Shown in pieces: positions 1 to 22,807 of a stretch of DNA of 55,665 nucleotides. The stretch is from a virus. Taxonomy: Duplodnaviria; Caudoviricetes. The stretch is taken from the IMG/VR virus record IMGVR_UViG_3300030098_002838, positions 1 through 55,665 of that record, one strand, 5' to 3'. How positions within the stretch are numbered: position 1 is the first letter of the stretch; each line of letters begins with the position of its first letter. A program made the position numbers and the translations under genes. Below the pieces are notes generated by a model. That model had not been told where the DNA came from, did not search any database, and saw nothing but the letters and a program-made list of their open reading frames with translations.

Positions 1-108
1 AATTTAGCACTTGTTGATAAGATTTTTGGATTAACAGAAGGAAATCATTTAAAAACAGATGATATGCTTTTAAAAGAACTTCGTTCAATGATTCCAGAGC
101 AAATTATT
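1..108. repeat. Terminal direct repeat, copy 1 (circular assembly overlap)
   Basis: 1-108 equals 55558-55665 except G99 vs A55656. Confidence 0.97.
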
Positions 109-3100: not shown

Positions 3101-4989
3101 GAGAAGATTTACAACAAGCATTTAAGGAAAGTGTTAGGGGAAGAAGACCAATATATATATTAGCAGGTAGACACCCAGCTTATAATCTAAGTAGTTCTGT
3201 TCAAGTTAAAGTAGAAAATATAGTTCCATCTGGACATGGTAATGTAGTTTGGTTTCATCCAGACATGGTATCTGGGCCTTTACAGGCAGACCAAGATGGT
3301 GATAATAGTTTTCTTCATGTTATGTATTTTGGTGAAGGATTTTCTGATGAAACAATTCCTAGACTTATGTCGCAATCGAAAGAAGCCTTTAAAGAAAAAG
3401 AGGTGTATTCTAGAGTTGAGATATTTAAAAAGAAAGATAGAAATTTAAAAGTCAATTCTAAATCAGATATGTATAAAGCATCTCAAATGATTGGAACTGG
3501 TATAAATGCTCAAGGTGTAGCAACAAACGCTGTTACATTCTTTGAAGATATGCATTACAAGGGATTTAAAGCTACAATAGGTGGTCAATCTATTATTGCT
3601 AGAGACCCCCATAAAGATATGGTTCTTATGGATTATGCTCCTTTGAATGATGATATATCACAAGAATATCTTGATGATTTGAATCTTGGTAAATTGGTTA
3701 ATAAAAATGGTGAAACATGGGTTAGTGGAGATAAATATTTAATGACAAGTCCTAGTAAAGAATTGGGATTAATTTTACAAGGAGCTGTTGACCATGTAAA
3801 AGAATTATTATTGCATGATTGGAAATATGGTGGATATGATTTCCTTATCCCTAAGATGTTTGTACAAGACACAGGAGCTCCTATAGGTCAAAAACAATCT
3901 AGAACAATAGCAAGGTTATTAAGAAAAGAACTTACTTATGGCGGATTAAGACATGGTAGAGACCCAGATTCAAGAAGGTCTAAATCTATAGAGTCTATGT
4001 TTGATGATAGTAAAAAAATGTATGATTTAAATCAAATGCTTGGTAAAGCAAGGGGAACAGAAATTGCTAAAAGAGCAAACAATAGAAGAGTAAAGAATGG
4101 TGAAAATAGCAGAATGGCTCGAGAAACATTACCTATTGAAAAACTAGAGTTTAATAATAATCTTACTACATTAGAAAAATTAATTGCTGTTCCTCATGAA
4201 GTAACTGTTAAGTATCAAAAAGAAAATCCAAAAGATATAGTATATAATCACCCGTGGGGTTATGCACCAAATAGAATAGTAAATGCAATAACAGCTACTC
4301 AAAAAGAACTTTTAGCTATGCAAAAAACTGAACAACTTTGGTATCCAGAAACTAAAGAATGGAAATCAAAGAAAAACGAAGCAATTGCATTTATTAATCA
4401 ATTAGCTACTGAGTTTTATGGAATAGCAAGAAGACAAGAAATATTTGATGATGCAATGTCAGATTCTTTAACATCTGCTAGTTACCCATATGCTGATGAA
4501 ATAATAGATTTAGTGGAAAAATGGTACAATGAAGGCGATAAAAAAAGAAAGATAAAGGCATTTAAGGATTTAGATGAACAGCAACAAGCATACGCTACAT
4601 TAAAGTTTTTAAGGGGAACTGAGCCTCAAATGAAACAGATAAGAGAAGGTGTTAAAGTTCGAGCAACAAAGATTATTAAAACGATGGTTAAAGTATCTGA
4701 AAGAATTGCTGAAGAAAAATCAGAAGGACAAAAAGAGCATTTAAGAAAAAGTTATAATAAACTTAGGGATGATTTAGATAAGCTTACAACAGTTACAACT
4801 ATTAATAAACAACCTAGATTAAGGAATATAGAAGCAATACTCCCAAGACAATTAATGCACCCTGGCGTTTGGTCTGAGTTTATAAATAGATTTGGCCCGA
4901 ACCTTAGAAAAGCATCTGATAAAGCTGTTAAATTAAGAATGAGAAGAGAACTTGGTATTAACGAACTTATTACAAAGGATTGTCCATAA
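1..4989 (+). CDS. Giant virion polyprotein, C-terminal part: single-chain two-barrel (double-psi beta-barrel) DNA-dependent RNA polymerase
   Basis: SDGASLV (2146), ALKH (2350), AGRHP (3163), ADQDGD (3286-3303), GVATN (3514) and AVDHVK (3784) occur in the order seen in YonO, QDE-1-like RdRP and crAss virion RNAP. Confidence 0.85.
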   Translation, partial: NLALVDKIFGLTEGNHLKTDDMLLKELRSMIPEQIINLPNEKELRKLAAVDNEYYITSKKTGITKEITEQQALSYYRDAPVLGPIWQDIKKVLNSLNLSYEEKNYSELDAPIVVSFLPEDLHFKIPRFHEKPNNLSDKKAPREHEYVNDGENVDELLRITGRESESGKRESVRYYIAKAANDVLNGLNQISKITQKGAVTPTGNLWDESAYNKSKEHFESAYDNLKNAYSISLEDFVKAMFRALKKIPAEFRDRVREFLLKWAREKDSGIDNKVNTRNASIGIIELMGLSGRKRARLSRELIDSGTMDRIVDSMLNRSSESDSLSREGTELEDSSDAEEVSNDLAFWTESYDFRNEQFFNFLEESDSKGWLTKKQVATLMEIVLTGDKNLFMSHILGEYNFAPDTIEKSNMAQSFWVKNQEINRITGSEKPSWWYANLDETGNRPKGRSSKKKLIPKVGGSPIYGKDIRSNKDLPSTYVVSFADWALKKNPYMGEEIKISRIYLNDIVDVWKGEKDDSGSKYFGKQAWIDLGRGKESLVRKWDNEFAAGVKDSKGNVVVRTVVEIKAGGSNPSFVVARVPEFVLEFSNDMEAVKGYFDTEVEMGNMTREMSKNYITSIKESNAVDGVGNRYAAAQHITMHEVMKRTHGSEYLMRTDDILHHSRRAQISYAEGVVPIGVGSHTIKILDQSKTFIVTPDGRTEPMVEYIAGLAGRSRSDGASLVETEHLDSIAKSLGREPIQGGTPLREVKSVVWFNSREDDFSKNNYPSKDFRGSEVWEGVHYLALKHNDFVIDEGLKFVDANGNVLAYSVKENNHIRIYDGDDNRITRLSTLDEAKEPDGGSGSFKLNGRVATNVLTLPEESLRVIKMPNQRPKNSAAFPFSWLSKLYEPEFENLRLEIEKRLLNIARANVQAMYDARKNPEVMAALFGQMKSDNTVFMKETDALIEPIPGQIIGDGHMHPHLIKGHIEPVKNKLIGQNAYGGRRRGFGNYPVIKSDIDGVKVSSYDGVAISEDDATMTNFIKQKLNLDRSLRGEDLQQAFKESVRGRRPIYILAGRHPAYNLSSSVQVKVENIVPSGHGNVVWFHPDMVSGPLQADQDGDNSFLHVMYFGEGFSDETIPRLMSQSKEAFKEKEVYSRVEIFKKKDRNLKVNSKSDMYKASQMIGTGINAQGVATNAVTFFEDMHYKGFKATIGGQSIIARDPHKDMVLMDYAPLNDDISQEYLDDLNLGKLVNKNGETWVSGDKYLMTSPSKELGLILQGAVDHVKELLLHDWKYGGYDFLIPKMFVQDTGAPIGQKQSRTIARLLRKELTYGGLRHGRDPDSRRSKSIESMFDDSKKMYDLNQMLGKARGTEIAKRANNRRVKNGENSRMARETLPIEKLEFNNNLTTLEKLIAVPHEVTVKYQKENPKDIVYNHPWGYAPNRIVNAITATQKELLAMQKTEQLWYPETKEWKSKKNEAIAFINQLATEFYGIARRQEIFDDAMSDSLTSASYPYADEIIDLVEKWYNEGDKKRKIKAFKDLDEQQQAYATLKFLRGTEPQMKQIREGVKVRATKIIKTMVKVSERIAEEKSEGQKEHLRKSYNKLRDDLDKLTTVTTINKQPRLRNIEAILPRQLMHPGVWSEFINRFGPNLRKASDKAVKLRMRRELGINELITKDCP

Positions 4990-7900
4990 TGTTAGGCCCG
5001 ACAAATTGCGATGTTAAAAAACTTTATACTCAACTTGATAAGGAAATGTATAATGATGTTTTAGATAGAATTGATATGGGAATACAGGACATGATAGAAG
5101 CTCCTGTTATAGAAATACAAGAAGGAATAAAAGAGCAGCTTAATCAAATATTAAAACCAGCTGAAAGAAGATTATTAAAAAGAGAATTAAAAAGAGAAGA
5201 AGATAGATATAAAGAGCATCAAACACTTTATAAGTTTTTAGAAAAATCAAGTGAAGATATGTTTAGAGATGTTGAAATTTTTGTTGTACCAGAAGACTTT
5301 GTAGAAACTAGGATATTTCAAATAAGAGAGTTTTTTGCACAAGCATTTAATGAATTACCTTTTGCAAATAAAAAAGATTTAATGAACTCTGGATTAAACA
5401 ACAGAAGAGATTGGGATGCTGGTAAAATTAGAGCAATAAGAAAAAGAATAGTAACATCTCATAATAAATATTTTAAAAGAGGTAAAGGCACAGATAAGCT
5501 AACAAACTATGAAAACACAATAAAAGGCTCTATGAAAATGGCACTTGATTTAGACCAAACTGGAGCAGCAGCTAAACTTTTATCTATGTCAAAAGGTATG
5601 CTTGATTCTTATTTGCAAGCTCAATATAAATGGATAGAAGGATACTTAGCAGGTGGTGAATATTCAGAATTGAATTTAACTGCTATAGACAATCAAATTA
5701 CAGCAGCTGCTCAAAAAGGTGATATATCTGAGCAAAATTTAAAGCCTATTCAAAAAACAAAAGTAGCTGTTAGATTATTTGAAGAACTTGTGCATAGTGA
5801 AGTTAGAAACATTATACCTCAAAATATACCAACAACATTAGCAGAATTTAATAAATGGAGAAACTCTTGGTTAGGTAAAAAGTTTTTTGAAATGCAAAAA
5901 TTTCAATCTGAAAGACATCAAATGGGTGTAAGTGGAGCTGAATATGTTTTAATTCCACTTCATGTTGACAAAGAAGGTGTTAATGTATTAAGAAACATAA
6001 GAAAACAAGATATTGCTGATGGTAGAATTGCTAAAGATGAAGACCCTGGAAAGTTTGAAAATGCTTATATAGCATATAGAGTACCAGAGGATTTTAATTC
6101 ATTCTTATCTGACATAAGAACAAAGAAAAAAATATCTGAACAATCATTAGAAAAACATTTGCTTGACAATGAAGTAGAAGAAGGTTTTTATACTGCTGGT
6201 GATGATGCTGTTTTTGATTATGAATTTATAGAAGGAACTAATACTCCAAAGAAAAAATATACATCTTTTAATAGGGGTGTAGATTATATGGGAGAATTTA
6301 ATTACCAACCTCCATCAGAATGGATGCCGGGAATATGGAATGCATTAGAAGACCAAAGAAAATTTGCTGAATTATTTTGGAAAGATATTGTTATTAATGA
6401 AACTGCTCTTCTTAATAATGAAATGAAATCATGGGAGCCTAAGCTTCTTTCTCAACTTGCAAATGCTGGATATGACCCAGAGATGATAAAAGAATTAATT
6501 ACTATGGTTGAAAATATGGGCATAGAAAATAATTTTTGGCAAGATGGTCAAGGCAACTATGTTTCTGCAAATACATTAGCAAGAAAAGCATCTAGATTTA
6601 GTTACGGGCCTATTTCTTATTTTCCAGCTGATAAAAAATCAATGATGAGAGAAGCTATAGATGGTATAGAAACTAAAATAGAAAATATTGAAGCAAGTAT
6701 ATCTCTATATGAAAACATACTTAATGGTGAAAATGTTCCAGAAGATGAAATTTATGAAGCAGAACAAAGTATTGAAATAGGCGAAGCAAGACTAGAAGAA
6801 CTAAATGAAGCTCTTGACGCAATAAACAATTTGTTATTTGGAGACCCAGACACTCATGAAGGTAGAGAAAAGTTAAAAACATCTCAAAGAATATTAAATA
6901 CAAAACACAGGTCTTTGTTTGCAGATAAAAAACGAAGAATAAAAGACAGAAGTGTTTGGAGAAAATATGTTACTGATGTATTTAGAGCAAATGAATCCAG
7001 TAAATTGAGAATACAAGGATATAAAACTCTTTTTGCTTTACGCAATTCTCCAAGCTTACTTAAATATTTAATTAATGAAGTAAGAAATTCTGTAGGAGAA
7101 CCATTTACTGATGCTGGATTTATGGGATTTGATTGGACTGAAGAAAATATTGCAGAATTATGGCCAGGTGAAGCCACACCAGAAGATGTAAGAGCTCTTG
7201 GGTTGTTTGTAAGGGGTTGGAAAACTGGTGCAAACTTAGGTATGTGGACTTCATTTACAAATAATTTTCAAAGAATTACTCCATTTTTAAATTATGGTAT
7301 AGAACCAATGATGGAATCATTTAGAGCATTAAGAGATGGAGACCCAAGAAGTGGTGCGACATCTGAAGAATTATTAGCACAAGTTAGAGAGACTGGTGTT
7401 TTAGAGCCTGCTAATGCAATGATTGATATGTTAGTAATGGGAATAGGTGGTATAGAAACTGATTATTTAGAAGGACTTCTTCCAATAAGAGATATGATGG
7501 CTTTGTGGAAAAATACAACTTTAAATGGTTGGTTAGCTAGTAGTAAAGGTTGGAATAATATATTAGCAAGAGCAAGGGGAAGGTCTGAAGGAGAAAAGAT
7601 TCAAGTAGAAGAATTAATTAGAATAAAAACCTTACTTTGGGAATTTATGCACCATGATAAAGGAAATAAAAAAGAATTAAAAAGAATGCTTAGAGATGCT
7701 AAAATAGGATTGAGGCAATCATATATAAACAGATTAGTGCATTGGAAAATATCATGGTTCCCAGCTGGTGCTAAAATTTTTACGTTAAAGGGTGGCGAAG
7801 AACAAATGAGAGCTGAAGTAGCTGTAATGGGATTTTTTAAAGCAGACGATTTAGGAAGAGTTGCTAAGCCAGCAAATAGAAAATGGAAGTACACAGATTC

Positions 7901-8666
7901 TCAAGACGCTGTTGATATGGCAAGGCTTTATGTTTATGCTAATTTATTTGGTATGAACTCACCTCATTTACCTAAAATGTTTAGAGGTGCTTTTGGAGCA
8001 ACTACTTTTCAATGGAGACCTTATGATTATTTTCAAACACAAGAAGACCATAGAAAATTTAAAAATGCAATATTAGCATCTCCATCAGAAAGTCCCATTC
8101 TTGGAGGAATGGCTTTAGTTCCTAGATTAATGTTGCATATAATGAAAAAAGGAATACGAGCACCGGGACTTATTTCTGAAACATATGACAAAAAATTTAT
8201 AAAATGGATTGATAGTATTGTTCCACTAGAAAAAAAGTGGGATGATAAAATGTTAGATGATTTAGTAAACTTTTTATTAATAAGAGGAACTGCATCTGTA
8301 TTAGCAACGACTATGTTTTATAGTAATGTTGGCTATGGAGCATGGAGAACATTAAATCAAACTGCTAGAATGGCTGGTTTAAGAAATCCAATGAGTCAAA
8401 GAGCTATATTTGGATTAGAAAGTCCTCTTATATCAAGAAGTTTACACGCACTTATGTTAGCATTACTAACAGCTAAAGTAATAACAGCCGATGATGAAGA
8501 AGTTTATGAAGATGTAGTTCGTGATTATGCGCCTGCATTTTGGTTTACAATATTTATATGGATGATGGATTTTGAAAAGAATTTTTCAAGAGGATTAAAA
8601 ACATGGTTACCAAGTCCACTTAGAGAAACAGCTCCAAAAATTATAGATGGATATTTTGATAACTAG
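4989..8666 (+). CDS. Large internal virion/ejection protein (~1225 aa)
   Basis: ATG overlaps the RNAP stop (TAATG); helical, with hydrophobic C-terminal segments; last gene of the late arm. Confidence 0.6.
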   Translation: MLGPTNCDVKKLYTQLDKEMYNDVLDRIDMGIQDMIEAPVIEIQEGIKEQLNQILKPAERRLLKRELKREEDRYKEHQTLYKFLEKSSEDMFRDVEIFVVPEDFVETRIFQIREFFAQAFNELPFANKKDLMNSGLNNRRDWDAGKIRAIRKRIVTSHNKYFKRGKGTDKLTNYENTIKGSMKMALDLDQTGAAAKLLSMSKGMLDSYLQAQYKWIEGYLAGGEYSELNLTAIDNQITAAAQKGDISEQNLKPIQKTKVAVRLFEELVHSEVRNIIPQNIPTTLAEFNKWRNSWLGKKFFEMQKFQSERHQMGVSGAEYVLIPLHVDKEGVNVLRNIRKQDIADGRIAKDEDPGKFENAYIAYRVPEDFNSFLSDIRTKKKISEQSLEKHLLDNEVEEGFYTAGDDAVFDYEFIEGTNTPKKKYTSFNRGVDYMGEFNYQPPSEWMPGIWNALEDQRKFAELFWKDIVINETALLNNEMKSWEPKLLSQLANAGYDPEMIKELITMVENMGIENNFWQDGQGNYVSANTLARKASRFSYGPISYFPADKKSMMREAIDGIETKIENIEASISLYENILNGENVPEDEIYEAEQSIEIGEARLEELNEALDAINNLLFGDPDTHEGREKLKTSQRILNTKHRSLFADKKRRIKDRSVWRKYVTDVFRANESSKLRIQGYKTLFALRNSPSLLKYLINEVRNSVGEPFTDAGFMGFDWTEENIAELWPGEATPEDVRALGLFVRGWKTGANLGMWTSFTNNFQRITPFLNYGIEPMMESFRALRDGDPRSGATSEELLAQVRETGVLEPANAMIDMLVMGIGGIETDYLEGLLPIRDMMALWKNTTLNGWLASSKGWNNILARARGRSEGEKIQVEELIRIKTLLWEFMHHDKGNKKELKRMLRDAKIGLRQSYINRLVHWKISWFPAGAKIFTLKGGEEQMRAEVAVMGFFKADDLGRVAKPANRKWKYTDSQDAVDMARLYVYANLFGMNSPHLPKMFRGAFGATTFQWRPYDYFQTQEDHRKFKNAILASPSESPILGGMALVPRLMLHIMKKGIRAPGLISETYDKKFIKWIDSIVPLEKKWDDKMLDDLVNFLLIRGTASVLATTMFYSNVGYGAWRTLNQTARMAGLRNPMSQRAIFGLESPLISRSLHALMLALLTAKVITADDEEVYEDVVRDYAPAFWFTIFIWMMDFEKNFSRGLKTWLPSPLRETAPKIIDGYFDN

Positions 8667-14699: not shown

Positions 14700-15011
14700 T
14701 TATTTGATTTGACCCAATACCTTCATGTTATGATATTGTAATGATTTTTTCATTTCAAGTTCATTAACATATTGTTTTTTATACCATTTGATTTTATAAC
14801 TACCAAACTTAACACCAAACTCATTTTCAACCATTGTTGTTACTATTTCTTTATCGGCCATCCATTTTAAATCTTTCTTTAAATTACATATTATAGCAGC
14901 CAACCTAAAACTTCCGAACATTTTTAAAGCATCTATCGGTGTTATACTATTTCCTGCTTCTAAGTATTTTCTTACTTTACTTGCTTGTGATTCTTTTCTT
15001 TTATTTTTCAT
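14700..15011 (-). CDS. Winged helix-turn-helix protein (HTH_39-like)
   Basis: LEAGNSITPIDALKMFGSFRLAAII signature. Confidence 0.8.
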   Translation of the reverse strand: MKNKRKESQASKVRKYLEAGNSITPIDALKMFGSFRLAAIICNLKKDLKWMADKEIVTTMVENEFGVKFGSYKIKWYKKQYVNELEMKKSLQYHNMKVLGQIK

Positions 15012-15025
15012 TTAAACCTCCCAAG

Positions 15026-15144
15026 ACTGAGGAGCCTCCTACTATCCACTATACGGTGAGGAAATGAAAGTTCGTGAACGACCTTTCGGTTTTTTTTCAC
15101 CCAAACCTCGGTGTATAGCTTCATACTTCGGTCAGCTCCTCAGT
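15026..15144 (-). ncRNA. Intergenic multi-stem structured RNA element
   Basis: 10-bp ACTGAGGAGC/GCTCCTCAGT enclosing CTATAC/GTATAG, GGTGA/TCACC and GAAAG/CTTTC stems. Confidence 0.55.
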
Positions 15145-15161
15145 ATGTTATTAACAACTAA

Positions 15162-15800
15162 TTAAAATGGTACGTCATCTCCATCTATTTCATCTACAGA
15201 TAACGAATCTCCACCTTCCCAAGGCTTTACGCCCATAACTTTAAAAGATGTTCTCCACTCTTGCTGTTCTGGTGGAAGATGTTTTGTATCAGATGTTACA
15301 TATTCTTGCCTTCTTAAATCAACAAGAACTGGTTTACCTTTTACATCTTCTTCTTCAATAAGAACAAGTTTCTTTACTTTTTTATCTCCAAGAGTTTGTT
15401 CTTCTACTTTGATACCAAGATTTTCTAATAATCCAAAGTATCTACTATTTTTAGAACCAGACTCGGAACTTGTAAAGATAAACCATCCATTATCCCAGAC
15501 ATCTCTTCCTACTAAATGTCCACAATCGGTGGTTGCTTGTTCTCCATTACCATTAGCAACAGGTATTCTGTTGTTATCTTGGTCTCTTTTATATTTGAAA
15601 CCATCCATCTCATATACTAATTGCTCTAAATCAGCTGCCTCGTCTGCTATTTTGTATGTCATATTGACAACAATTGCTTCACCGGCCTTTGTATTTACTT
15701 CTTTAGTAGCTAAAGATTTAATATGAGCTGGATATTGACCTTCTTCAATGGGTTTCCAAGTTGAATTAGGGTCGTATACTGCATTGATTTCCTTTGCCAT
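15162..15800 (-). CDS. Single-stranded DNA-binding protein (DUF669-like)
   Basis: PIEEGQYPAHI start; acidic DGDDVPF C-terminus; next to the annealase and exonuclease. Confidence 0.75.
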   Translation of the reverse strand: MAKEINAVYDPNSTWKPIEEGQYPAHIKSLATKEVNTKAGEAIVVNMTYKIADEAADLEQLVYEMDGFKYKRDQDNNRIPVANGNGEQATTDCGHLVGRDVWDNGWFIFTSSESGSKNSRYFGLLENLGIKVEEQTLGDKKVKKLVLIEEEDVKGKPVLVDLRRQEYVTSDTKHLPPEQQEWRTSFKVMGVKPWEGGDSLSVDEIDGDDVPF

Positions 15801-16895: not shown

Positions 16896-17683
16896 TATTT
16901 ATTCCTCCCTCTAGGTTTTCTTTGTTTTCTTTGTTTTATTTTACTAGGACAAATACTTTCGTATTGACAATAATTACATTCCCAATCCTCAAATGGAACA
17001 CCATATTCCAATTCAGGTTCTAAGTATTTTTCAAATTTTTCACCATATTCAATTAAATATTCATTAAGGCCCGTCCAATATTCAAATGCTTTATCTATCC
17101 AATTAGATATAACTAATTGCTCTCTAACCATACTAGTATTCTTATTGTACCAAAATAAATGAAGATTAGTCTTTTTTGGTTCTACTTGTGATTGCATCCC
17201 TAATGCATATGTTCCAAGCTGTAGCTTATAATTCTCATTAGCATTTTGCTGTCTATTGTCTTTTCTGCCAAAGTGCTTAGTCCAAGTATAAGCAGCTGCT
17301 GTTTTAACATCATATATGTCAAGTATTTCAGAATTACCATCATATACTGCAACATCTAAAGTTCCCACAATATTTAATTCTGGTATTTTTATCTTATGCT
17401 CAGAAAATATAGATATATTATTATCCATTATTTCTTTTGCATTAGTTTTCATATAATGATGTACTGCATCTTCAACATCTTTATGAACAATAGTACCCAA
17501 TCTTAAAACTCTTAATCCTTTATCATCTATTGATTCTGATTTGTATTCAAAGTATGCATACAATTGCTTTCTATAACATGAGCCTGATGATGAAGCATGA
17601 AATCCTTTATCTTTTTTACGCTCTATAGAACTTTTATCTTGAAGATGTCGCAAGTAGTTTTGATATGCTATAAGTATATTCAT
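16895..17683 (-). CDS. PD-(D/E)xK exonuclease, Cas4/RecB-like with Fe-S cysteines
   Basis: CYRK, GTIVH, GTLD...DVKT, QLGTY and C-terminal CNYCQYESIC. Confidence 0.88.
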   Translation of the reverse strand: MNILIAYQNYLRHLQDKSSIERKKDKGFHASSSGSCYRKQLYAYFEYKSESIDDKGLRVLRLGTIVHKDVEDAVHHYMKTNAKEIMDNNISIFSEHKIKIPELNIVGTLDVAVYDGNSEILDIYDVKTAAAYTWTKHFGRKDNRQQNANENYKLQLGTYALGMQSQVEPKKTNLHLFWYNKNTSMVREQLVISNWIDKAFEYWTGLNEYLIEYGEKFEKYLEPELEYGVPFEDWECNYCQYESICPSKIKQRKQRKPRGRNK

Positions 17684-17704
17684 ATTAGTTCCTTTCTTCC
17701 CCTA

Positions 17705-17733
17705 AATTTAACAATATCAAGAGTTACTATCAA
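17705..17733 (-). promoter_or_regulatory. sigma70-like promoter for the recombination operon
   Basis: TTGATA-N17-TAAATT just upstream of the exonuclease gene. Confidence 0.6.
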
Positions 17734-17950
17734 CATCTTTCTGCTCGCCTTCTGATAATTCTTTTGCTATTTCTTTGTTAACATCTTTGATGCTTATAGT
17801 ATTTTCTATAAGATATATTCCTAATACCCATTTAAGTGCTTCTATCCATCCTTGATGTATATAATCTTCAGAACTAGTTGTTTTGCTTATATCTTGTGAT
17901 AACATATCAATAAGGCAAGTTATTATTTCATCTTTAGTTCGTAGTTTCAT
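17717..17950 (-). CDS. Hypothetical protein
   Basis: GGAGG SD; GWIEALKWVL motif common in small phage proteins. Confidence 0.65.
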   Translation of the reverse strand: MKLRTKDEIITCLIDMLSQDISKTTSSEDYIHQGWIEALKWVLGIYLIENTISIKDVNKEIAKELSEGEQKDVDSNS

Positions 17951-17951
17951 T

Positions 17952-18146
17952 TTATCCTCCCCATGTTACTGTTCCATATCTATCACCAAATAATTTACTA
18001 CAAGGTGGACATGATTTTTCTTTTAATTTCCCCTTGTACAAATCAGGCACTCTTTCTGTAATCCATTGTTCTTTAATATTTTTATGTTGTTTATATTTTA
18101 TCTCGCATAAATTACAATAATATACTTCACTTTTGACAAATATCAT
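17952..18146 (-). CDS. Hypothetical Zn-finger protein
   Basis: CNLC...CPPC; ATGA overlap with the upstream stop. Confidence 0.6.
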   Translation of the reverse strand: MIFVKSEVYYCNLCEIKYKQHKNIKEQWITERVPDLYKGKLKEKSCPPCSKLFGDRYGTVTWGG

Positions 18147-18484
18147 GATGCAGCTAACCCCCAAAAGAAAAATGCTTTAATATTCTTTTTACCTTTATAA
18201 CCTGATTCTTCTTTTGCTTTCTTTAGAGTTGCTCCTTTAAACTCAATACAATTCCATCTGGAAAACTTAGTACCATCCATTGTATCATCTACAAATTTCC
18301 AAAATTTCTTTGTACCATATCTAGGATGGTTTGTTATCATTTTAATACCATTAGATGTAGATATTGTACCATTATATCCATCATCTCCATGCCTACGTTC
18401 TGCTTCTTCTACCAATTTATTGTATGCTTCAACTGCAGTTTTGAATCTACCTATTGCAAAGTCTTGTTGACAATGTGCTCCCAT
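18143..18484 (-). CDS. Hypothetical protein
   Basis: AGGAGG SD; MGA...HGDDGYNGTIST...FFFWGLAAS. Confidence 0.75.
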   Translation of the reverse strand: MGAHCQQDFAIGRFKTAVEAYNKLVEEAERRHGDDGYNGTISTSNGIKMITNHPRYGTKKFWKFVDDTMDGTKFSRWNCIEFKGATLKKAKEESGYKGKKNIKAFFFWGLAAS

Positions 18485-18627
18485 TATTTTGCCTCCTTTT
18501 TATAAAGTTGATATTTTTCTTTATTCATTACTTTTAATATTTCTATTACTTCTTTACCTCTAAAGCCATCATCTCCTATTGCTATGTCAACAGCTTCTTT
18601 AATTTGCTTTTCAGTATATTTTACCAT
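18484..18627 (-). CDS. Small hypothetical protein (47 aa, not in track)
   Basis: MVKYTEKQIKEAVDIAIGDDG..., fills the gap, coupled at both ends. Confidence 0.5.
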   Translation of the reverse strand: MVKYTEKQIKEAVDIAIGDDGFRGKEVIEILKVMNKEKYQLYKKEAK

Positions 18628-19178
18628 ATTTCAAACCCTCCACTTTTTTCACAAAATTTTATAAACTCTTCAAAAAGCTCTTGATGTAATCGATAATTAC
18701 ATTCCCAGTTTTTCTGTTTACCAACTGGAATGCCTTTTTCTTTTTGAAATGGTGTATTGCACGCATTACACTTTCCCTGAACAATCTCATCATTTCTATG
18801 GCCCGTGCCTTTACAAATTTCACATTCTTCAAGTGGTAAAGAATTAAGATACTTTTCTCGTTCTTCACACATTTTAGATATGTTTAAATGTTTTAATTTT
18901 TTTGCTATTTTTGATGCTTTGTCTTCATCTATAACATATCCATCGTTCATGCTACCAGAATTATAATCTTCTGGGGTTAATATATCAGTACACAAAGCAA
19001 ATACAGCTTCCCATATTGGCCTCCATCCCCAAACATTTGCTCTAAAATATGCACCCGGTGTATTAGTTTGCCACGCAAAATATGCTTTTTTCTCTTCTTC
19101 ATTGTCTTTTCTTGTCCAATCTGGTGCATCTGGTTTATCTTGACCATTAGGTCTAATTCCATTTAAATCAAATCCCAT
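18621..19178 (-). CDS. Hypothetical protein with a DnaJ-like CxxCxGxG Zn finger
   Basis: MGFD...YFRANVWGWRPIW...CEICKGTG...CNAC...SGGFEIW; AAGGAG SD. Confidence 0.75.
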   Translation of the reverse strand: MGFDLNGIRPNGQDKPDAPDWTRKDNEEEKKAYFAWQTNTPGAYFRANVWGWRPIWEAVFALCTDILTPEDYNSGSMNDGYVIDEDKASKIAKKLKHLNISKMCEEREKYLNSLPLEECEICKGTGHRNDEIVQGKCNACNTPFQKEKGIPVGKQKNWECNYRLHQELFEEFIKFCEKSGGFEIW

Positions 19179-19212
19179 GTTATTCTCCTTTTTTATTGTT
19201 ATTTAAAATTTA

Positions 19213-19796
19213 AGTGGGGACTGAACATTTAGCGTTGAATAATTTCAATGAATCTACTAAACATTTAAAACAGACCCCACTATACTACTCATTTAATCTT
19301 AACTGTATACGCTTTAAACAAGTTACTATAACTAAATAAAGTCGCAGGAGATATGAGTAGTTATTAACTATGCGTACACGACTAGTGTTTTTCAACCTAG
19401 TCCACCACAACCTAATTATTATAATTCAAAGTGCATTGTTTAGTTTTACCACCACAATCATCTTAGCCATATAATAATTATCCACTACTCTGGTTTACCC
19501 AGCTCCCTCTGCATAGTTAAATAAATCTTAGAGGGTTGATTATTATGCAATTAGATGACTCGAGTCCTTTATAAATGGATACCTAATTACTGCTTTAAAA
19601 CCCTTAAAGTTTATAAAGCACAACCCTCATTATAATATTTGCCCTGTTTGGGTGTCATGGTACAGGGCTAACCATGTAGGGGATGCGCTCACTCAGCGCT
19701 GCTATATTGTATGAGAACTGTGGTTAACCTATAGCGCTTGTTGCACTCCCGTGGATGATATACTAGGTACAAGAAGGATAAACCTAATATATATCC
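19213..19796 (-). ncRNA. Array of seven contiguous stem-loop domains (putative ncRNA cluster)
   Basis: Closing stems at 19213-19281, 19284-19361, 19364-19520, 19531-19628, 19641-19668, 19680-19750 and 19753-19796; no ORF of 60 aa or more. Confidence 0.65.
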
Positions 19797-20065
19797 TATT
19801 CTTCTTCATCGTCAATTATTATGTGGTATGCAAAATTTAATCCTGTATCCTCATCATCCCATTCTGTTCTTTGTAATATAACATTAGCATTTTCTTGTAT
19901 ATATATTATATCGTCAACATCTAGTTCTTCCCAATATTTATATTTAATGCACCTTTTTGATGTACCACCACTATTTTTAAACTCAATATTAATTGAATCA
20001 TATCCTTTTAATTTAAATAGCAATAGTATTTTTTCTTCTATTTTATTTATAGGTGCATGTATCAT
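19796..20065 (-). CDS. Hypothetical acidic protein
   Basis: ATGA-coupled ORF in the early arm. Confidence 0.6.
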   Translation of the reverse strand: MIHAPINKIEEKILLLFKLKGYDSINIEFKNSGGTSKRCIKYKYWEELDVDDIIYIQENANVILQRTEWDDEDTGLNFAYHIIIDDEEE

Positions 20066-20235
20066 TTATTCCCCCATTTATCGTAATATACAGAATAATT
20101 AGTAATAATATTTGTCCATTGAGCTTTAGATAATGATGTCATTTCTCTTGCTCTTGGGTCAAACATATTATATAATCCACTTTCTTGTACATCAAGATAT
20201 TCTTTGAATTGCTTTTTTGTTACTATTGATTTCAT
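20062..20235 (-). CDS. Small DUF5049-like protein (57 aa, not in track)
   Basis: MKSIVTKKQFKEYLDVQESGLYNMFD...; GGAGGAG SD. Confidence 0.6.
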   Translation of the reverse strand: MKSIVTKKQFKEYLDVQESGLYNMFDPRAREMTSLSKAQWTNIITNYSVYYDKWGNK

Positions 20236-20492
20236 TACTCCTCCTCTTCTGTTTTGGACATATCAACAATGCCATTTATTGTATTTGTAAGTTTATTATC
20301 TGCTATTGCAATAATTCCCGTTACATCATCTTGCGATAAACCCAATTCAACACATAATGCTCTTAACATTGCAGATGCTAATTTACTATCTTTCTTTGTA
20401 ACCGTACTATCATATCTGTTTGCTTGCAGTATTAATAATGATATAAAGTGTGTTAAATCACCCAATATTTCAATTACTTGGTTCTTTCTCAT
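20235..20492 (-). CDS. Hypothetical protein
   Basis: AAGGAG SD. Confidence 0.6.
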   Translation of the reverse strand: MRKNQVIEILGDLTHFISLLILQANRYDSTVTKKDSKLASAMLRALCVELGLSQDDVTGIIAIADNKLTNTINGIVDMSKTEEEE

Positions 20493-20748
20493 TTTTATCT
20501 CCTTCTTCTGTTATTATTTCAAATATTTTATAAAATATATTTAATCTATGTCTAATTAATTGTAACTCAACTATATCTTTTTCCATCTTTTCTAATCTTT
20601 CTTTATTTTCAAATATATTCTGCATCTTAGATGGTAATGAAATATAATTAAGTCTGCGCATATTATCTTCAGCTGTAAATGTAAGGTCTTGTTCTAATCT
20701 AATTATTTCATTTACTAATACCTTAATCATATCATCTTGCTTAACCAT
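20470..20748 (-). CDS. Hypothetical coiled-coil protein
   Basis: AGGAGG SD. Confidence 0.6.
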   Translation of the reverse strand: MVKQDDMIKVLVNEIIRLEQDLTFTAEDNMRRLNYISLPSKMQNIFENKERLEKMEKDIVELQLIRHRLNIFYKIFEIITEEGDKNEKEPSN

Positions 20749-20758
20749 ATATTCCTCC

Positions 20759-20992
20759 TTATTTAAAATATTTTAGTGTTTGCATCCAATATGTTATACC
20801 TTCTTTAGTATAGTAATGCCTTATTGTTTCCCATTTATAATGTAACTGGCAATATATCGTTGTACTGTCTTTATCTACTGAGTGGTTAATATCATATTTA
20901 TGTTTGTCGCCAAACCTATCTTCAACAATGTAAGACTTATCATCTTTTTTACACCCTATAAATAATAAGGATATTAATAATATATATTTCAT
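20759..20992 (-). CDS. Putative lipoprotein
   Basis: MKYILLISLLFIG-C signal peptide and lipobox. Confidence 0.7.
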   Translation of the reverse strand: MKYILLISLLFIGCKKDDKSYIVEDRFGDKHKYDINHSVDKDSTTIYCQLHYKWETIRHYYTKEGITYWMQTLKYFK

Positions 20993-21192
20993 TACTCCTC
21001 CTTATTATTTTTTATTATATCTTCAAGTCTATTTGCTATTTCCATCATACTTGGTTTCATATTATTTACCCGACATTCTTTATCTGCGACTGTTCTGATT
21101 TCTTTTACTAGTTTTTTGATTTTAGATACTATTTCTTTACCTGCATATGTATCATCATAGATTATTTTTCCATTTATATCTATATATTGCAT
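20992..21192 (-). CDS. Hypothetical protein
   Basis: GAGGAG SD. Confidence 0.55.
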   Translation of the reverse strand: MQYIDINGKIIYDDTYAGKEIVSKIKKLVKEIRTVADKECRVNNMKPSMMEIANRLEDIIKNNKEE

Positions 21193-21366
21193 TTATTTCT
21201 CCTCTTCTACATAGTCTTCCCATTCATTATCATCTATTGATACTATAAATGGCCCGTCTTCATCTACATCAACATCATATATTTTATTTTCATAACTTAA
21301 TATTGTATAAAATACTATTGCAAATGGTAGCATTGCTATTATTAATAATATACCAACCTCTAACAT
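21193..21366 (-). CDS. Small membrane protein with an acidic tail (57 aa, not in track)
   Basis: MLEVGILLIIAMLPFAIVFYTIL TM segment; AGGAGG SD. Confidence 0.55.
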   Translation of the reverse strand: MLEVGILLIIAMLPFAIVFYTILSYENKIYDVDVDEDGPFIVSIDDNEWEDYVEEEK

Positions 21367-21494
21367 TAGTTATTCCTCCTTAGTTCTTCTGATACTTTAT
21401 TTACTGCTTGACTATAGTTTTGTGCCTCAACAGTTATTACTCTGCCATAATATCTAAATGACCATTGATTATCATGTATTAATATAAGTGTCAT
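21366..21494 (-). CDS. Small hypothetical protein (42 aa, not in track)
   Basis: AAGGAG SD; stop overlaps the next start. Confidence 0.5.
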   Translation of the reverse strand: MTLILIHDNQWSFRYYGRVITVEAQNYSQAVNKVSEELRRNN

Positions 21495-21519
21495 GTTTGA
21501 CTCCTTCGGTTATTGTGGT

Positions 21520-21729
21520 TTATTGTTTATTTAATTTTTCACATAATTGTACATTTTTTTTACCTAGTTGTACATTTCTATCACGAAGCATATCTATCTC
21601 ATCTTTTAGTTCATTGATTACATTATCATTGTGTTGTAGCTGGTCATTCATTGTCCAACCTAACCAACATAGAAACATCATTGATATGGCTGCTATAAAA
21701 CTCATTGTTACTAATAGTATGTCTAGCAT
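21520..21729 (-). CDS. Membrane-anchored coiled-coil protein
   Basis: N-terminal TM segment followed by heptad repeats; AAGGAG SD. Confidence 0.65.
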   Translation of the reverse strand: MLDILLVTMSFIAAISMMFLCWLGWTMNDQLQHNDNVINELKDEIDMLRDRNVQLGKKNVQLCEKLNKQ

Positions 21730-21743
21730 TATTTACTCCTTGT

Positions 21744-21884
21744 TTATTTAAATACTGGTTGAGGTGCTGTGTACTTTACTTTCTTACCATCTCTCCAAAT
21801 CCATCCTCTTCTTCTACTTTTAGAGATTTGTCTTGGTGTTACTCCAAGTTCACTTGCTAGTTCTTTATTTGTCTTTTTATTCAT
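21744..21884 (-). CDS. Small HTH DNA-binding protein (46 aa, not in track)
   Basis: TNKELASELGVTPRQISKSRRRG HTH pattern; AAGGAG SD. Confidence 0.65.
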   Translation of the reverse strand: MNKKTNKELASELGVTPRQISKSRRRGWIWRDGKKVKYTAPQPVFK

Positions 21885-21984
21885 TATGTTCTCCTTGATT
21901 GTTTGCTTTGTAGATTATCACACATAAGTATGTTAGTGAGCTGTATGATAGTATAATAAATGGTAATAGTATTAAGTCAAGCAT
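21877..21984 (-). CDS. Small hydrophobic peptide (35 aa, not in track)
   Basis: MLDLILLPFIILSYSSLTYLCVII; AAGGAG upstream. Confidence 0.4.
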   Translation of the reverse strand: MLDLILLPFIILSYSSLTYLCVIIYKANNQGEHNE

Positions 21985-22050
21985 CGCATTACTCCTTGTT
22001 TATAGTTTATGCCCAAGTTTTATTAAATCTTATAATATAAAAGAAAAGAG

Positions 22051-22158
22051 AGTGGCTACTAATAACATCATGACGTTAAGCATGAACATGAGTCCAATAT
22101 GTTTGTTACGTTCACCACTGCCCTTATACAAACCCCCTGAAAGGGGGAAAATTCCCCC
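22051..22158 (-). promoter_or_regulatory. Structured intergenic element with alternative G5/C5 hairpins
   Basis: AGTGG/CCACT-closed multiloop at 22051-22119; C5-G5-C5 tracts at 22133-22158. Confidence 0.4.
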
Positions 22159-22162
22159 TCAA

Positions 22163-22363
22163 TTAGGCTGACATAATCGCAGACACTTTGTCCGAATCAT
22201 CTCTCATCTTAGAGATTGCATCAGCTGTTGCCAAATACCTAAAGCCACTACCATCGTGCTTTACAATGTGGTGGTCTTTGCCATCAATCTTATAGGTTTC
22301 AGTTGACACCTCTAAGGTAACTTCAACAAACTTGCCATTAATTGGTAACCATAGTATTTCCAT
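22163..22363 (-). CDS. Hypothetical protein, first gene of the early arm
   Basis: AAGGAG SD. Confidence 0.7.
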   Translation of the reverse strand: MEILWLPINGKFVEVTLEVSTETYKIDGKDHHIVKHDGSGFRYLATADAISKMRDDSDKVSAIMSA

Positions 22364-22497
22364 AGTTCACTCCTTTTTATTTGGTTAAGAAATAACTAAA
22401 AATCGGATTTTCACAATCCCGATATGGGGTACACTAGCCGAGTTATGGCTGTATAACAAAATGCTATAATTTTTTTGAAAAAATAACTTGGGCATGC

Positions 22498-22527
22498 TTG
22501 ACATTGACTTGACAAGTGTTTTAAATT
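22498..22527 (+). promoter_or_regulatory. sigma70-like promoter of the late arm
   Basis: TTGACA-N18-TAAATT containing three tandem TTGAC copies. Confidence 0.65.
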
Positions 22528-22591
22528 GGGGGGACTACAGGGGGGCCGAAAGGGATATTGTAGGCCCGGCATGTAACATAGTATATATAGT

Positions 22592-22807
22592 ATGGCTATT
22601 GAATTAAAAGAACTGGGTTTATTACCAATAGAAGAACAAGAGTCTATTTTAGAAGGGATGCAAGAAAGCTACCATCCAATAGAAGTAAATGGTAAAAAAT
22701 TCATGATACCAGGCCAAGTAAACGAATTAATAGATGATTTGTTTTCTGAAGTAAATAATTTAAGAAAAAAAGTAAAAGAGGGTAGTATTGGAAAGTCAGA
22801 CAATTAG
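22592..22807 (+). CDS. Hypothetical protein
   Basis: First ORF of the late arm. Confidence 0.6.
   Translation: MAIELKELGLLPIEEQESILEGMQESYHPIEVNGKKFMIPGQVNELIDDLFSEVNNLRKKVKEGSIGKSDN

What the first reader, a model, noticed from the sequence alone, without database searches (positions are those of the whole stretch)
19213..19796. Seven back-to-back structured RNA domains in a 580-nt ORF-free early region
Seen: consecutive closing stems separated by only 2-12 nt. They are AGTGGGG/CCCCACT; ACTACTCAT/ATGAGTAGT; TTAACTATGC/GCATAGTTAA (a multiloop with GACTAG/CTAGTC, TAATTATTATA/TATAATAATTA and CTGG/CCAG); GAGGGTTG/CAACCCTC; GCCCTGT/ACAGGGC; GGGATGC/GCACTCCC; and GGAT..TAGGT/ACCTA..ATCC. The units differ in sequence, so this is not CRISPR, and I see no tRNA T-loop. 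G-U pairs in the last unit favour the minus (early) strand. Inference: a polycistronic cassette of small RNAs, such as anti-defence decoys, antisense regulators or protein sponges. It is the largest non-coding stretch in an otherwise dense genome.
Basis: partly seen in the sequence, partly recalled or inferred. Interest (0 to 1): 0.8.

Follow-up and report, generated by a model that had tools for sequence, protein, structure and literature searches.

The report
Shuffled structured-RNA modules in marine phage
A 617-base gene-free stretch in an uncultured marine phage is a string of seven separately folding RNA elements, each of which turns up again, reshuffled, in other marine phages and matches no catalogued RNA family, so it looks like a row of RNA "genes" whose job is still unknown.

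Summary
All seven closing stems are at the stated coordinates. The 622-nt stretch folds much better than shuffles on the minus (gene-sense) strand (z -5.6). It is the largest ORF-free gap in the window (617 nt).

New here: each of the seven domains belongs to its own recurrent family in uncultured marine phage contigs.
- Exact-pattern scans of IMG/VR found the D2 core in 29 contigs, the D3 junction in 21 and the D5 core in 20.
- The families occur in different orders, next to unrelated genes.
- Between near-identical phages they are gained or lost as whole hairpins.
- Covariation is strong for D2 (10 of 19 pairs with double changes) and D3 (9 of 20). It is seen by eye for D1, D4, D6 and D7, and is weak for D5.
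- D2 and D3 are single-copy per phage genome.
- Rfam 15 matches none of them, and GTDB genomes hold no exact D2 or D3 core.

Best reading (about 0.5): a co-transcribed array of autonomous RNA modules that behave like accessory early genes. Conserved loops and junctions, displayed on variable helices, would act as binding or catalytic cores. Transcription, processing and targets are not shown. The main rival is cis-acting mRNA elements.

The parts
19754..19796 (-). D7: hairpin starting at the last base of the upstream gene's TAG stop. 13-nt loop UUAUCCUUCUUGU on a long stem containing G-U pairs.
   Evidence: Fold -12.1 kcal/mol, z -4.0 on minus against -6.5, z -1.0 on plus. The same loop sits on different stems in L007/8/10, L093, L013/L015/L089 and L138.
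19680..19750 (-). D6: about 70-nt domain closed by GGGA(G)UGC/GCAUCCC. It has an inner mini-hairpin AGG-UUAA-CCU and conserved CUCAUACAAUAUA and GAGUGAG.
   Evidence: Homologs in L093, L116, L007 group, L016 and L143/L144. Closing stems change to GGGGAAUGC/GCAUAUCCCC, GGGAAACGC/GCGUAUUCCC and GGGAUAC/GUAUCCC. The mini-hairpin changes to GG-AUAU-CC, AAG-CCGG-CUU and AGGA-CGU-UCCU. Own z is only -1.6.
19641..19676 (-). D5: candidate H-type pseudoknot CAUGGU-UA-GCCCUGU-ACCAUG-ACACCCAA-ACAGGGC. It overlaps a sigma-70-like ATGACA-18-TATAAT.
   Evidence: Core found in 20 IMG/VR contigs. Ten distinct variants are 92.3% paired, with only one double-changed pair per stem (U-A/A-U/G-U; C-G/U-A). Promoter-like match 11 of 12.
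19531..19628 (-). D4: about 98-nt two-armed domain closed by GAGGGUUG/CAACCCUC.
   Evidence: z -3.9. In the homolog in L107 the closing stem becomes GGGGGUUG/CAACCCCC and one inner hairpin is missing. Near-identical copies follow a different D6 in L143/L144.
19364..19520 (-). D3: multi-helix junction. P1 UUAACUAUGC/GCAUAGUUAA; P2 CUGG-GUAAA-CCAG; optional variable P3 insert; P4 capped by a GAAA loop. Junctions are AGAGGGAG, AGAGUAGUGGAUA, AGGUUGUGGUGG and CGUGUAC.
   Evidence: Junction pattern in 21 IMG/VR contigs. In 18 distinct sequences, 99.2% of cells are paired and 9 of 20 pairs have double changes, against 24-38% paired when slid. RNAalifold finds the same helices. The minimal core is about 85 nt, with P3 absent.
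19285..19362 (-). D2: rod-like hairpin. Variable P1 (ACUACUCAU/AUGAGUAGU); conserved AUAUCUCCUGCGACU and AGCGUAUACAGUUAAGAUUAAAUG; variable distal helix P2.
   Evidence: The 24-mer occurs in 29 IMG/VR contigs. Model R1 gives 35 hits, 29 distinct: 94.7% paired against 82.3% shuffled, and 10 of 19 pairs have double changes. The whole hairpin is precisely absent in L002.
19213..19282 (-). D1: G+C-rich hairpin AGUGGGG(U)CUG...CAG(U)CCCCACU with an inserted tip, followed by UUAAAUUUU.
   Evidence: z -4.3. A short form lacking the tip occurs in L002, L007, L016, L093 and L114. L097 has AGUAGGGG/CCCCUACU (compensatory) and L093 has a G-U. The terminator scan does not call it a terminator.
19179..19212 (-). 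AU-rich leader and Shine-Dalgarno (AAGGAG) of the 185-aa gene.
   Evidence: Sequence. Conserved next to the gene in L002 and L006.
19796..20065 (-). Upstream 89-aa gene of unknown function. Its stop codon abuts or overlaps the D7 stem.
   Evidence: ORF list. No PHROG or Pfam hit. Homologous upstream genes occur in 20 loci.
18621..19178 (-). Downstream 185-aa gene: viral protein with a CxxCxGxG-type zinc motif, function unknown.
   Evidence: 120 homologs, mostly from marine metagenomes. Only sub-threshold DnaJ_CXXCXGXG hits in relatives. The ESM Atlas places it in viral hypothetical clusters.
15030..15147 (-). Module E: a further structured module of the same kind, standing alone in another intergenic gap of this phage.
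   Evidence: z -3.1. Homologs occur in L002, L093, L108, L097, L106 and L088, with four different closing stems. In L108 it lies next to D2.

Best explanation
The gap 19179-19795 is read leftward (minus strand) together with the flanking early genes. It carries seven autonomous structured RNA modules, in the order D7-D6-D5-D4-D3-D2-D1.

Each module belongs to its own sequence and structure family. The families are found only in uncultured marine phage contigs, and D2 and D3, the two checked, are single-copy per genome. Modules are gained, lost and reordered as whole units, in the way small accessory early genes are.

In each family the helices vary freely while specific loops and junctions stay fixed. 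That is the signature of an RNA whose exposed nucleotides bind a partner or form a catalytic core.

I therefore read the array as a row of RNA-level accessory genes.

Shown:
- Modularity.
- Covariation, strong for D2 and D3.
- Single copy per genome.
- Co-orientation with the downstream genes.
- No match to any catalogued RNA family.

Inferred:
- The array is transcribed by read-through from the leftward operon.
- The modules are freed from the polycistronic RNA by cleavage in the short A/U-rich linkers, or by self-cleavage.
- They then act on a host or phage factor during takeover.
For: 1. Whole-module indels in near-identical phages.
- L002 is 99% identical over 440 nt but lacks exactly the D2 hairpin and the tip of D1. 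It carries an A-U to G-C swap in D3 P4 and a U.U to G.U change in D1.
- L006 (flanking protein 96% identical) has D7-D6-D5 identical, then runs straight into the leader. It lacks D4-D1, about 420 nt.

2. Recurrence.
- D2 24-mer in 29 IMG/VR contigs, D3 junction in 21, D5 core in 20 and D6 in 6.
- The window's domains match 40 other arrays piecewise.
- A crude regex map put 40 distinct arrays into 21 different module orders.
- The flanking ORFs fall into many unrelated families.

3. Covariation.
- D2: 94.7% paired against 82.3% shuffled, 10 of 19 pairs with double changes, 22-45% paired when slid.
- D3: 99.2% paired, 9 of 20 pairs with double changes.
- RNAalifold recovers the same helices on MAFFT alignments.
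- D7 has one loop on at least 5 different stems.
- D6, D4 and D1 show compensatory changes.

4. Strand.
- The downstream flank is purine-skewed in the motif's sense in 41 of 43 arrays, and the upstream flank in 33 of 48 (calibrated).
- G.U against A.C in annotated pairs: D2 39 against 6, D3 5 against 2.
- D5-D7 fold better on the minus strand.

5. Single copy.
- D2 model: 1 hit in each of 4 of 5 phage records, 0 in the fifth.
- D3 pattern: 1 per record in 5 of 5.
- One D2 hit in the window.

6. No terminator-like site lies between 22133 and 17500 on the minus strand.

7. Not known.
- Rfam 15 gives 0 hits at gathering score in the window and in 17 related loci totalling 148 kb.
- At E <= 10 or E <= 1 only noise and one tRNA elsewhere appear.

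8. Weak hint: contigs from two metatranscriptome runs of one study carry D3/D2-type sequence from relatives. One is a 231-nt contig at depth 35 that joins the D2 3' core to the D3 5' core.
Against: - There is no direct evidence of transcription, strand, transcript ends or processing. The RNA-library contigs could be DNA carry-over.
- D5 has only one covarying pair per stem and carries promoter-like hexamers.
- For D1, D2 and D4 the plus strand folds as well as the minus strand.
- The G.U/A.C asymmetry in variable pairs is modest: 16 against 8.
- Family members were found with exact patterns taken from the window. The conservation of those pattern stretches is therefore by ascertainment, and many hits are close relatives.
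- D4 has only one divergent homolog.
- No conserved neighbouring protein points to a partner.
- D7 abuts the upstream stop codon, and D5 or D1 often sit just before a ribosome-binding site. Both fit a cis role as well.
Confidence: 0.5

Rival explanations
1. Cis-acting mRNA architecture. The modules stay in the polycistronic early mRNA. They set its stability, processing or translation, acting as exonuclease blocks, RNase sites or a translational operator. In this reading D5 is a pseudoknot operator followed by an unstructured A/U-rich leader, like the T4 gene 32 operator.
For: - The array always lies between or ahead of co-oriented genes (41 of 43 downstream flanks).
- D7 starts at or overlaps the upstream stop codon in three lineages.
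- D5 sits about 20-35 nt before a Shine-Dalgarno in 9 of 21 distinct contexts.
- D1 is the last unit before the ribosome-binding site in the window, L002, L007, L093 and L114.
- No own promoter or terminator is evident.
- Candidate structured RNAs upstream of phage gp32 genes are reported from IMG/VR (PMC10690425, passages).
Against: - Near-identical phages do without four of the seven modules in front of the same gene (L006).
- The same modules precede many unrelated genes.
- In the window, 420 nt separate D5 from the ribosome-binding site.
- Strongly conserved unpaired nucleotides are not needed for a mere nuclease block.
- The downstream protein shows no sign of being a single-strand-binding protein.
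Confidence: 0.25
2. One or more modules (D3, D2 and E are the best candidates) are new classes of small self-cleaving ribozymes. The array would then resemble the ribozyme clusters seen near phage genes.
For: - Sizes are 80-160 nt.
- There are many invariant junction nucleotides on freely varying helices, with optional peripheral inserts.
- Different structured RNAs are clustered side by side.
- Known small ribozymes lie near phage genes and have been proposed to process polycistronic transcripts (PMC6765202, passage).
Against: - No known ribozyme family is found in the window or in 148 kb of related loci, so there is no guilt by association.
- No cleavage-site signature can be read from the sequence.
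- Conserved cores fit protein or ligand binding equally well.
Confidence: 0.15
3. DNA-level cassettes. These would be promoter, operator or terminator units and recombination linkers, like the PeSL elements of T4-type phages. The palindromes would serve protein binding or cruciforms.
For: - D5 holds ATGACA-18-TATAAT in the window (11 of 12 matches) and TTGACA in most relatives, with TATAAT 18 nt on in L086, L090 and L093.
- The inverted repeat GCYCTGT-14-ACAGRGC could be an operator.
- At the same place the distant relative L003 has a terminator, iterons and a promoter.
- Module-bounded indels resemble PeSL-mediated shuffling (PMC4122927, passages; PMC2839356, listing).
Against: - D2 and D3 are single-copy per genome, whereas I recall PeSLs as recurring many times per genome. 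The passages read do not state this.
- D2, D3, D6, D7 and E conserve loops and junctions while the stems vary, which is the opposite of operators.
- A start about 7 nt after the TATAAT would cut off the 5' strand of the next module's covarying closing stem, both in the window (D4) and in L086/L093 (D3).
- The -35 changes together with its pairing partner.
- The modules show three-way junctions, a GAAA loop and G.U pairs.
Confidence: 0.07
4. Single-stranded DNA structures of a replication origin or priming site within the replication module.
For: - The region is single-copy, non-coding and highly structured.
- It lies in the same leftward gene block as the PD-(D/E)XK nuclease and DnaB.
- G.T pairs are tolerated in ssDNA too.
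Against: - There are no iterons and no repeat family of more than 2 copies.
- Modules are optional between near-identical phages.
- In other phages they lie next to unrelated genes.
- The pseudoknot geometry and tetraloops are RNA-like.
Confidence: 0.03

Closest known systems
Clusters of small self-cleaving ribozymes and associated 'RAGATH' motifs near phage genes (Weinberg et al. 2015, recalled and not read here; review PMC6765202, one passage read)
   Same: Several different small structured RNAs lie side by side in phage-like DNA. They have conserved cores on variable helices, and their biological role is unknown.
   Different: None of the known ribozyme or RAGATH models in Rfam 15 matches the window or 148 kb of related loci. 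Self-cleavage is untested.
Phage tRNA gene clusters with extra stable RNAs, as in T4 (recalled)
   Same: These are arrays of unlike, stem-closed small RNA genes separated by short spacers. They are variable between related phages and co-transcribed.
   Different: No tRNA or tmRNA is found by ARAGORN or Rfam. The folds are hairpins, junctions and a pseudoknot, not cloverleaves.
PeSL promoter/terminator cassettes of T4-type phages (PMC4122927, passages; PMC2839356, listing)
   Same: Short conserved non-coding units sit at the borders of indels between close relatives. D5 has sigma-70-like hexamers beside a stem.
   Different: PeSLs are simple stem-loops plus a promoter. I recall them as recurring many times per genome, which the passages read do not state. 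Here the units are complex, differ from each other and are single-copy, with covarying stems and fixed loops.
T4 gene 32 translational operator (mentioned in PMC10690425, passages; geometry recalled)
   Same: D5 is a compact candidate H-type pseudoknot. In L006, L015, L020, L023 and others it is followed directly by an unstructured A/U-rich leader and the ribosome-binding site.
   Different: Support for D5 pairing is weak. The downstream protein is not recognisably an SSB. In the window four other modules lie between D5 and the gene. D5 also precedes other genes.
Modular 3' UTRs of flaviviruses: xrRNA, dumbbell and 3' stem-loop units (recalled)
   Same: These are strings of autonomous structured RNA units, including pseudoknots. 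The units are duplicated, lost and reordered between related viruses.
   Different: Flaviviruses are eukaryotic RNA viruses and the units work against a 5'-3' exonuclease. There is no sequence or family relation, and no such function is shown here.
Large ornate bacterial and phage RNAs GOLLD and ROOL (bioRxiv 10.1101/2024.12.08.627333, listing and abstract start)
   Same: They are several hundred nt of conserved non-coding structure, often phage-borne and of unknown function.
   Different: Those are single large folds. Here the units recur independently and in different orders, and the Rfam models do not match.

Membership tests
Any Rfam 15 family (4227 models) | Covariance-model score at or above the family's gathering score | tested here: not met
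   0 matches in the whole window and 0 in 17 related loci totalling 148 kb. At E <= 10 on 19000-20000 the only hit is ROSE_2, at 15 bits against a gathering score of 65. At E <= 1 on 9 loci there is only a tRNA elsewhere and a miRNA-model noise hit.
tRNA / tmRNA | Cloverleaf with T-loop, found by ARAGORN or the Rfam tRNA model | tested here: not met
   ARAGORN finds 0 genes in the window. Rfam finds none.
CRISPR array | Three or more near-identical direct repeats at regular spacing | tested here: not met
   Only 2-copy direct-repeat families of 7-18 nt at irregular spacing.
Known small self-cleaving ribozymes (hammerhead, twister, twister-sister, pistol, hatchet, HDV-like) | Match to the class consensus core and fold | tested here: not met
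   No such Rfam hit even at permissive E-values. That these classes are in Rfam is recalled.
Self-cleaving ribozyme (any class, including new ones) | Site-specific self-scission of the transcript | not testable with these tools
   This needs in vitro transcription, or end-specific RNA sequencing.
PeSL-type promoter/terminator cassette | Sigma-70-like promoter joined to a simple stem-loop | tested here: inconclusive
   D5 has ATGACA-18-TATAAT, 11 of 12 matches. However, the -10 is poor in many relatives, and the predicted start would truncate the next module's closing stem. The other six modules have no such hexamers among the best matches.
PeSL-type promoter/terminator cassette | Many similar copies spread through one genome. 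This criterion is recalled; it is not stated in the passages read. | tested here: not met
   D2 has 1 copy in 4 of 5 records and 0 in the fifth. D3 has 1 copy in 5 of 5. Each pattern occurs once in the window.
T4 gene 32-type translational operator | Pseudoknot followed by an unstructured A/U-rich leader directly upstream of the regulated gene | tested here: inconclusive
   This arrangement is seen in 9 of 21 distinct D5 contexts, but not in the window, where D4-D1 intervene. Pseudoknot pairing has one covarying pair per stem.
T4 gene 32-type translational operator | The regulated gene encodes the single-strand-binding protein that binds the operator | tested here: not met
   The 185-aa protein has no SSB or gp32 family hit, and relatives show only a sub-threshold DnaJ zinc motif. 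The ESM Atlas gives viral hypothetical clusters. The fold prediction was never returned.
Intrinsic terminator (for D1) | G+C-rich stem followed at once by a U-tract | tested here: not met
   The scan calls no terminator at 19213-19282. The tail is UUAAAUUUU.
MITE or other multi-copy repeat element | Several copies per genome with terminal inverted repeats | tested here: not met
   Single copy. Searching all array sequences against the window finds only the array itself and module E.
Replication origin | Iterons or initiator boxes plus an A/T-rich unwinding element | tested here: not met
   There is no repeat family beyond 2 copies. By contrast L003 has clear CTATTGT iterons at the matching place.

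The most novel reading that the evidence does not exclude
Uncultured marine phages carry an 'RNA accessory genome'. This would be at least eight uncatalogued families of small structured RNAs (D1-D7 and E, plus others seen only in relatives). They are single-copy, traded between phages as cassettes and strung together in early transcripts. At least one of them would be either a new class of self-cleaving ribozyme or a trans-acting RNA that binds and disables a host factor, for defence or takeover.
Probability: 0.3. Interest if true: 0.9.

Novelty: new variant of a known kind. Interest (0 to 1): 0.8.

Why it matters
Phage early regions are read almost entirely as protein-coding. Here a phage spends about 1% of its genome on a row of unlike, well-conserved RNA folds, and dozens of other marine phages carry the same folds in other combinations.

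If these are functional RNAs, they add several new RNA families at once. D3, D2 and E have the look of ribozyme or aptamer cores. They would also show that RNA modules can be exchanged between phages like accessory genes.

The natural variants offer ready-made comparisons. Some are the same phage with 3, 6 or 7 modules, and D3 cores range from about 85 to about 230 nt. These make the question testable in vitro without a cultured host.

Tried and rejected
Hidden ORF or alternative code: rejected. Every frame has 9-24 stops of all three kinds. The 41-aa TTG ORF at 19285-19410 spans D2, which L002 lacks.

Known RNA families, tRNA and CRISPR: rejected.

Cultured phages: blastn of 19100-19900 and of module E against 50,697 phage records found nothing. 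TerL and DnaB reach only about 25-30% identity to any isolate, so no host could be named.

Prokaryote genomes: the exact D2 24-mer and a 31-nt D3 core gave 0 matches in the GTDB representative contigs. These were exact-match scans only, so diverged copies would be missed.

Distant relative L003: its matching intergenic region is not homologous. It has a terminator, CTATTGT iterons and a promoter, with z -1.1.

D6 dimerisation idea: the 8-nt palindromes GGUUAACC, GGAUAUCC and AGCCGGCU suggested a kissing loop. L143/L144 instead have AGGA-CGU-UCCU, so a covarying mini-hairpin explains all variants.

Conserved partner protein: flanking ORFs fall into many families. Pfam gave only scattered hits: wHTH, ParB-like and SPL-like radical SAM.

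Gap survey upstream of the 185-aa homolog in 80 metagenome loci: 59 scored under 50 nt by a crude rule of ORFs >= 40 aa. Four of these (L015, L020, L021, L023) were mis-scored because a spurious ORF overlaps their array. The ORF-length test of orientation was uninformative in this A/T-rich DNA and was replaced by strand skew.

RNA runs: parts of the stretch without cover in X19 and X20 say nothing. Only contigs were available, so there are no ends, strand or expression levels.

Fold of the 185-aa protein: the job was accepted. It was still unfinished at 13 collection tries, so there is no model and no fold search.

Literature: searches listed no paper describing such arrays. Supplements are closed, so I cannot tell whether these modules are among the 10,006 candidates of PMC10690425.

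Full report
**Setting.** The window is a complete-looking 55,665-bp virus record from IMG/VR, about 32% G+C. Genes from about 8.8 to 22 kb run on the minus strand. A run of small ORFs comes first, then the gap, then a 185-aa gene, a PD-(D/E)XK nuclease, DUF932, a Dam methylase and DnaB. Packaging and head genes follow on the plus strand. TerL and DnaB are only about 25-30% identical to any cultured phage. Homologs of the 185-aa protein come largely from marine metagenomes, and the DNA-holding runs are marine.

**The observation.**
- 19179-19795 has no ORF of 50 aa or more and is the largest such gap in the window (617 nt, next 433).
- All six frames are full of stops of all three kinds.
- As RNA the minus strand folds at -170.6 kcal/mol against -135.3 +/- 6.3 for shuffles (z -5.6). 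The plus strand gives z -3.2.
- Domain by domain the minus strand gives z from -1.6 to -4.3. Only D5-D7 clearly prefer the minus strand by energy.
- No tRNA, CRISPR-like repeat or Rfam family is present.

**Close relatives show the units are real units.** A contig 99% identical over 440 nt (L002) lacks exactly the D2 hairpin, base for base at its closing stem. It also lacks the tip of the D1 hairpin. It carries a compensatory A-U to G-C change in the small D3 hairpin, and a U.U to G.U change in D1 that pairs only in the minus-strand sense. A metagenome contig whose 185-aa protein is 96% identical (L006) has D7-D6-D5 identical to the window and then runs directly into the leader. The whole block D4-D1 is absent.

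**Each unit is a family.** Relatives at 56-74% protein identity carry some of the window's units at 73-94% nucleotide identity, mixed with units the window lacks. Exact-pattern scans of IMG/VR found the D5 core in 20 contigs, a D2 24-mer in 29, the D3 junction in 21 and a D6 core in 6.
- The ORF-free stretches holding them are 140-1295 nt long.
- The window's array matches 40 others piecewise, domain by domain.
- A crude regex map sorted 40 distinct arrays into 21 module orders.
- The flanking ORFs belong to many unrelated families with no recurring partner.
- By strand skew, calibrated on the window, the downstream flank is co-oriented with the motif in 41 of 43 arrays and the upstream flank in 33 of 48. 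Arrays therefore lie inside or at the head of operons, always in the sense of the genes that follow.

**D2.** This is a rod-like hairpin. It has a variable closing stem, then AUAUCUCCUGCGACU, a variable distal helix that ranges from a few pairs to about 60 nt, then AGCGUAUACAGUUAAGAUUAAAUG.
- A covariance model built here found 35 copies in 625 kb, 29 of them distinct.
- 94.7% of cells pair, against 82.3% for shuffles and 22-45% when the partner is slid. Ten of 19 pairs show changes on both sides.
- RNAalifold on the plain MAFFT alignment gives the same outer and distal helices. It also pairs much of the conserved middle, where the only changes are C to U opposite G.
- The 3' 24-mer was my search pattern, so its invariance is by ascertainment. 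The 5' conserved block was not.

**D3.** This is a junction RNA. It has P1, an invariant P2 hairpin with a GUAAA loop, an optional P3 insert of 0 to about 140 nt made of at least four unrelated insert types, and a P4 hairpin capped by GAAA. Junction strands are fixed. The minimal form is about 85 nt. In 18 distinct sequences 99.2% of cells pair and 9 of 20 pairs have double changes. RNAalifold agrees and adds a covarying pair under the GAAA loop.

**The other units.**
- D7 keeps a 13-nt loop (UU[AU][AU]CCUUCUUGU, with a near variant in L093) on at least five different stems, always at the stop codon of the upstream gene.
- D6 keeps CUCAUACAAUAUA and GAGUGAG, while its closing stem and an inner mini-hairpin change in step.
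- D4 has one divergent homolog, with an A-U to G-C swap in the closing stem and one inner hairpin missing.
- D1 has short and long forms, one compensatory G-C to A-U change and one G.U. The tip inserted in the long form is flanked by a direct repeat. The same tip caps the distal helix of D2 in other phages.
- D5 can be drawn as an H-type pseudoknot (6-bp and 7-bp stems, loops of 1-2 and 7-8 nt). Only one pair per stem covaries among ten variants.

**Strand and copy number.** In the annotated pairs, G.U outnumbers A.C by 39 to 6 in D2 and 5 to 2 in D3. In variable pairs the count is 16 to 8. D2 is present once in each of 4 of 5 phage records of 50-73 kb and absent in one. D3 is present once in each of 5 of 5. 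The window has one copy of each. Neither core occurs, as an exact match, in one genome each of 185,579 prokaryote species.

**A further module in the window.** Searching all array sequences against the window found a second site. It is a 118-nt module at 15030-15147 (minus strand), in the 150-nt gap between two other genes (z -3.1). Its homologs have four different closing stems and fixed UGACCGAAGUAUGAAG and AGUGRAUAGUAGGAGG. In L108 it lies beside D2.

**Interpretation.** The pattern is many unlike, single-copy, stem-closed folds. Helices vary while loops and junctions stay fixed. Whole units come and go between near-identical phages, and they always lie in the sense of the following genes. 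This fits RNA-level accessory genes carried in early transcripts better than the alternatives.
- A cis role for the two neighbouring genes is hard to square with L006 doing without four modules, and with the same modules preceding unrelated genes. It remains the main rival, especially for D7, D5 and D1.
- A DNA-level promoter or operator reading applies at most to D5. Its TATAAT abuts the covarying closing stem of the next module, so a start there would cut that stem. Its -35 also changes together with its pairing partner.
- PeSL cassettes of T4-type phages are simple stem-loop plus promoter units (PMC4122927, passages). I recall them as many-copy per genome, which those passages do not state.
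- No terminator-like site lies between 22133 and 17500 on the minus strand, so read-through from the leftward operon is plausible but not shown.
- Contigs from two metatranscriptome runs of one study carry D2/D3-type sequence from relatives. That is presence in an RNA library, no more.

**What is not known.** Transcription, ends, processing, partners and the host are all unknown. Whether any unit self-cleaves cannot be told from sequence. The fold of the 185-aa protein was requested but never returned. I found no paper describing such arrays. A 2023 screen of IMG/VR predicted 10,006 candidate structured RNAs (PMC10690425, outline and passages), and its supplements, which I could not open, may list some of these motifs.

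**Verdict.** None of the units belongs to a catalogued family. Interest is high.

Noticed in passing
window 15030-15147 (minus strand): A separate 118-nt structured module ('E') lies in the 150-nt gap between ORFs 15162-15800 and 14700-15011. Its z is -3.1. Homologs in six other loci have four different closing stems and two fixed strands, and in L108 the homolog sits beside D2.
   Followed up: partly
window 1-4989, 4980-8666, 49351-55665 (plus strand): Three giant ORFs of 1662 aa (open at the 5' end of the record), 1228 aa and 2105 aa (open at the 3' end) have no Pfam hit. The first and last may be one gene split by the record's ends.
   Followed up: partly
window 19227-19262 within D1; L091, L095 and L113 within D2: The tip inserted in the long form of D1 is flanked by an 8-nt direct repeat (TAAATGTT). 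The same small hairpin (GAUUCAUUGAAAUUAUUCAAC) caps the distal helix of D2 in other phages, so sub-helix pieces move between module families.
   Followed up: partly
L003 3187-3608: At the place matching the array, a distant relative has a clean terminator, a run of CTATTGT iterons and a TTGACA...TACAAT promoter. There it is an ordinary regulatory boundary.
   Followed up: partly
L015 2675-2725, L013, L088, L096, L101, L108: Another recurrent unit, absent from the window, can be drawn as an H-type pseudoknot (GAGUGU..GGUGGU..ACACUC..ACCACC). A roughly 100-nt unit (GGCUACUGG...CCAGAGCCU) occurs in L007 and L016.
   Followed up: no
L117 85-156: A tRNA-Met-like gene (anticodon CAU, 65.9 bits) lies about 1.2 kb upstream of that phage's array.
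   Followed up: no
window 21953-21980 and 22133-22147 (minus strand): A promoter-like TTGACT-16-TATTAT and the only terminator-like hairpin in 17500-22800 sit at the head of the leftward gene block. They are candidates for the start of the transcript that would cross the array.
   Followed up: no
L016 2290-2330, L143, L144: In these relatives the 5' half of the D6-type unit lies inside the end of the upstream ORF, so a module can overlap coding sequence.
   Followed up: no
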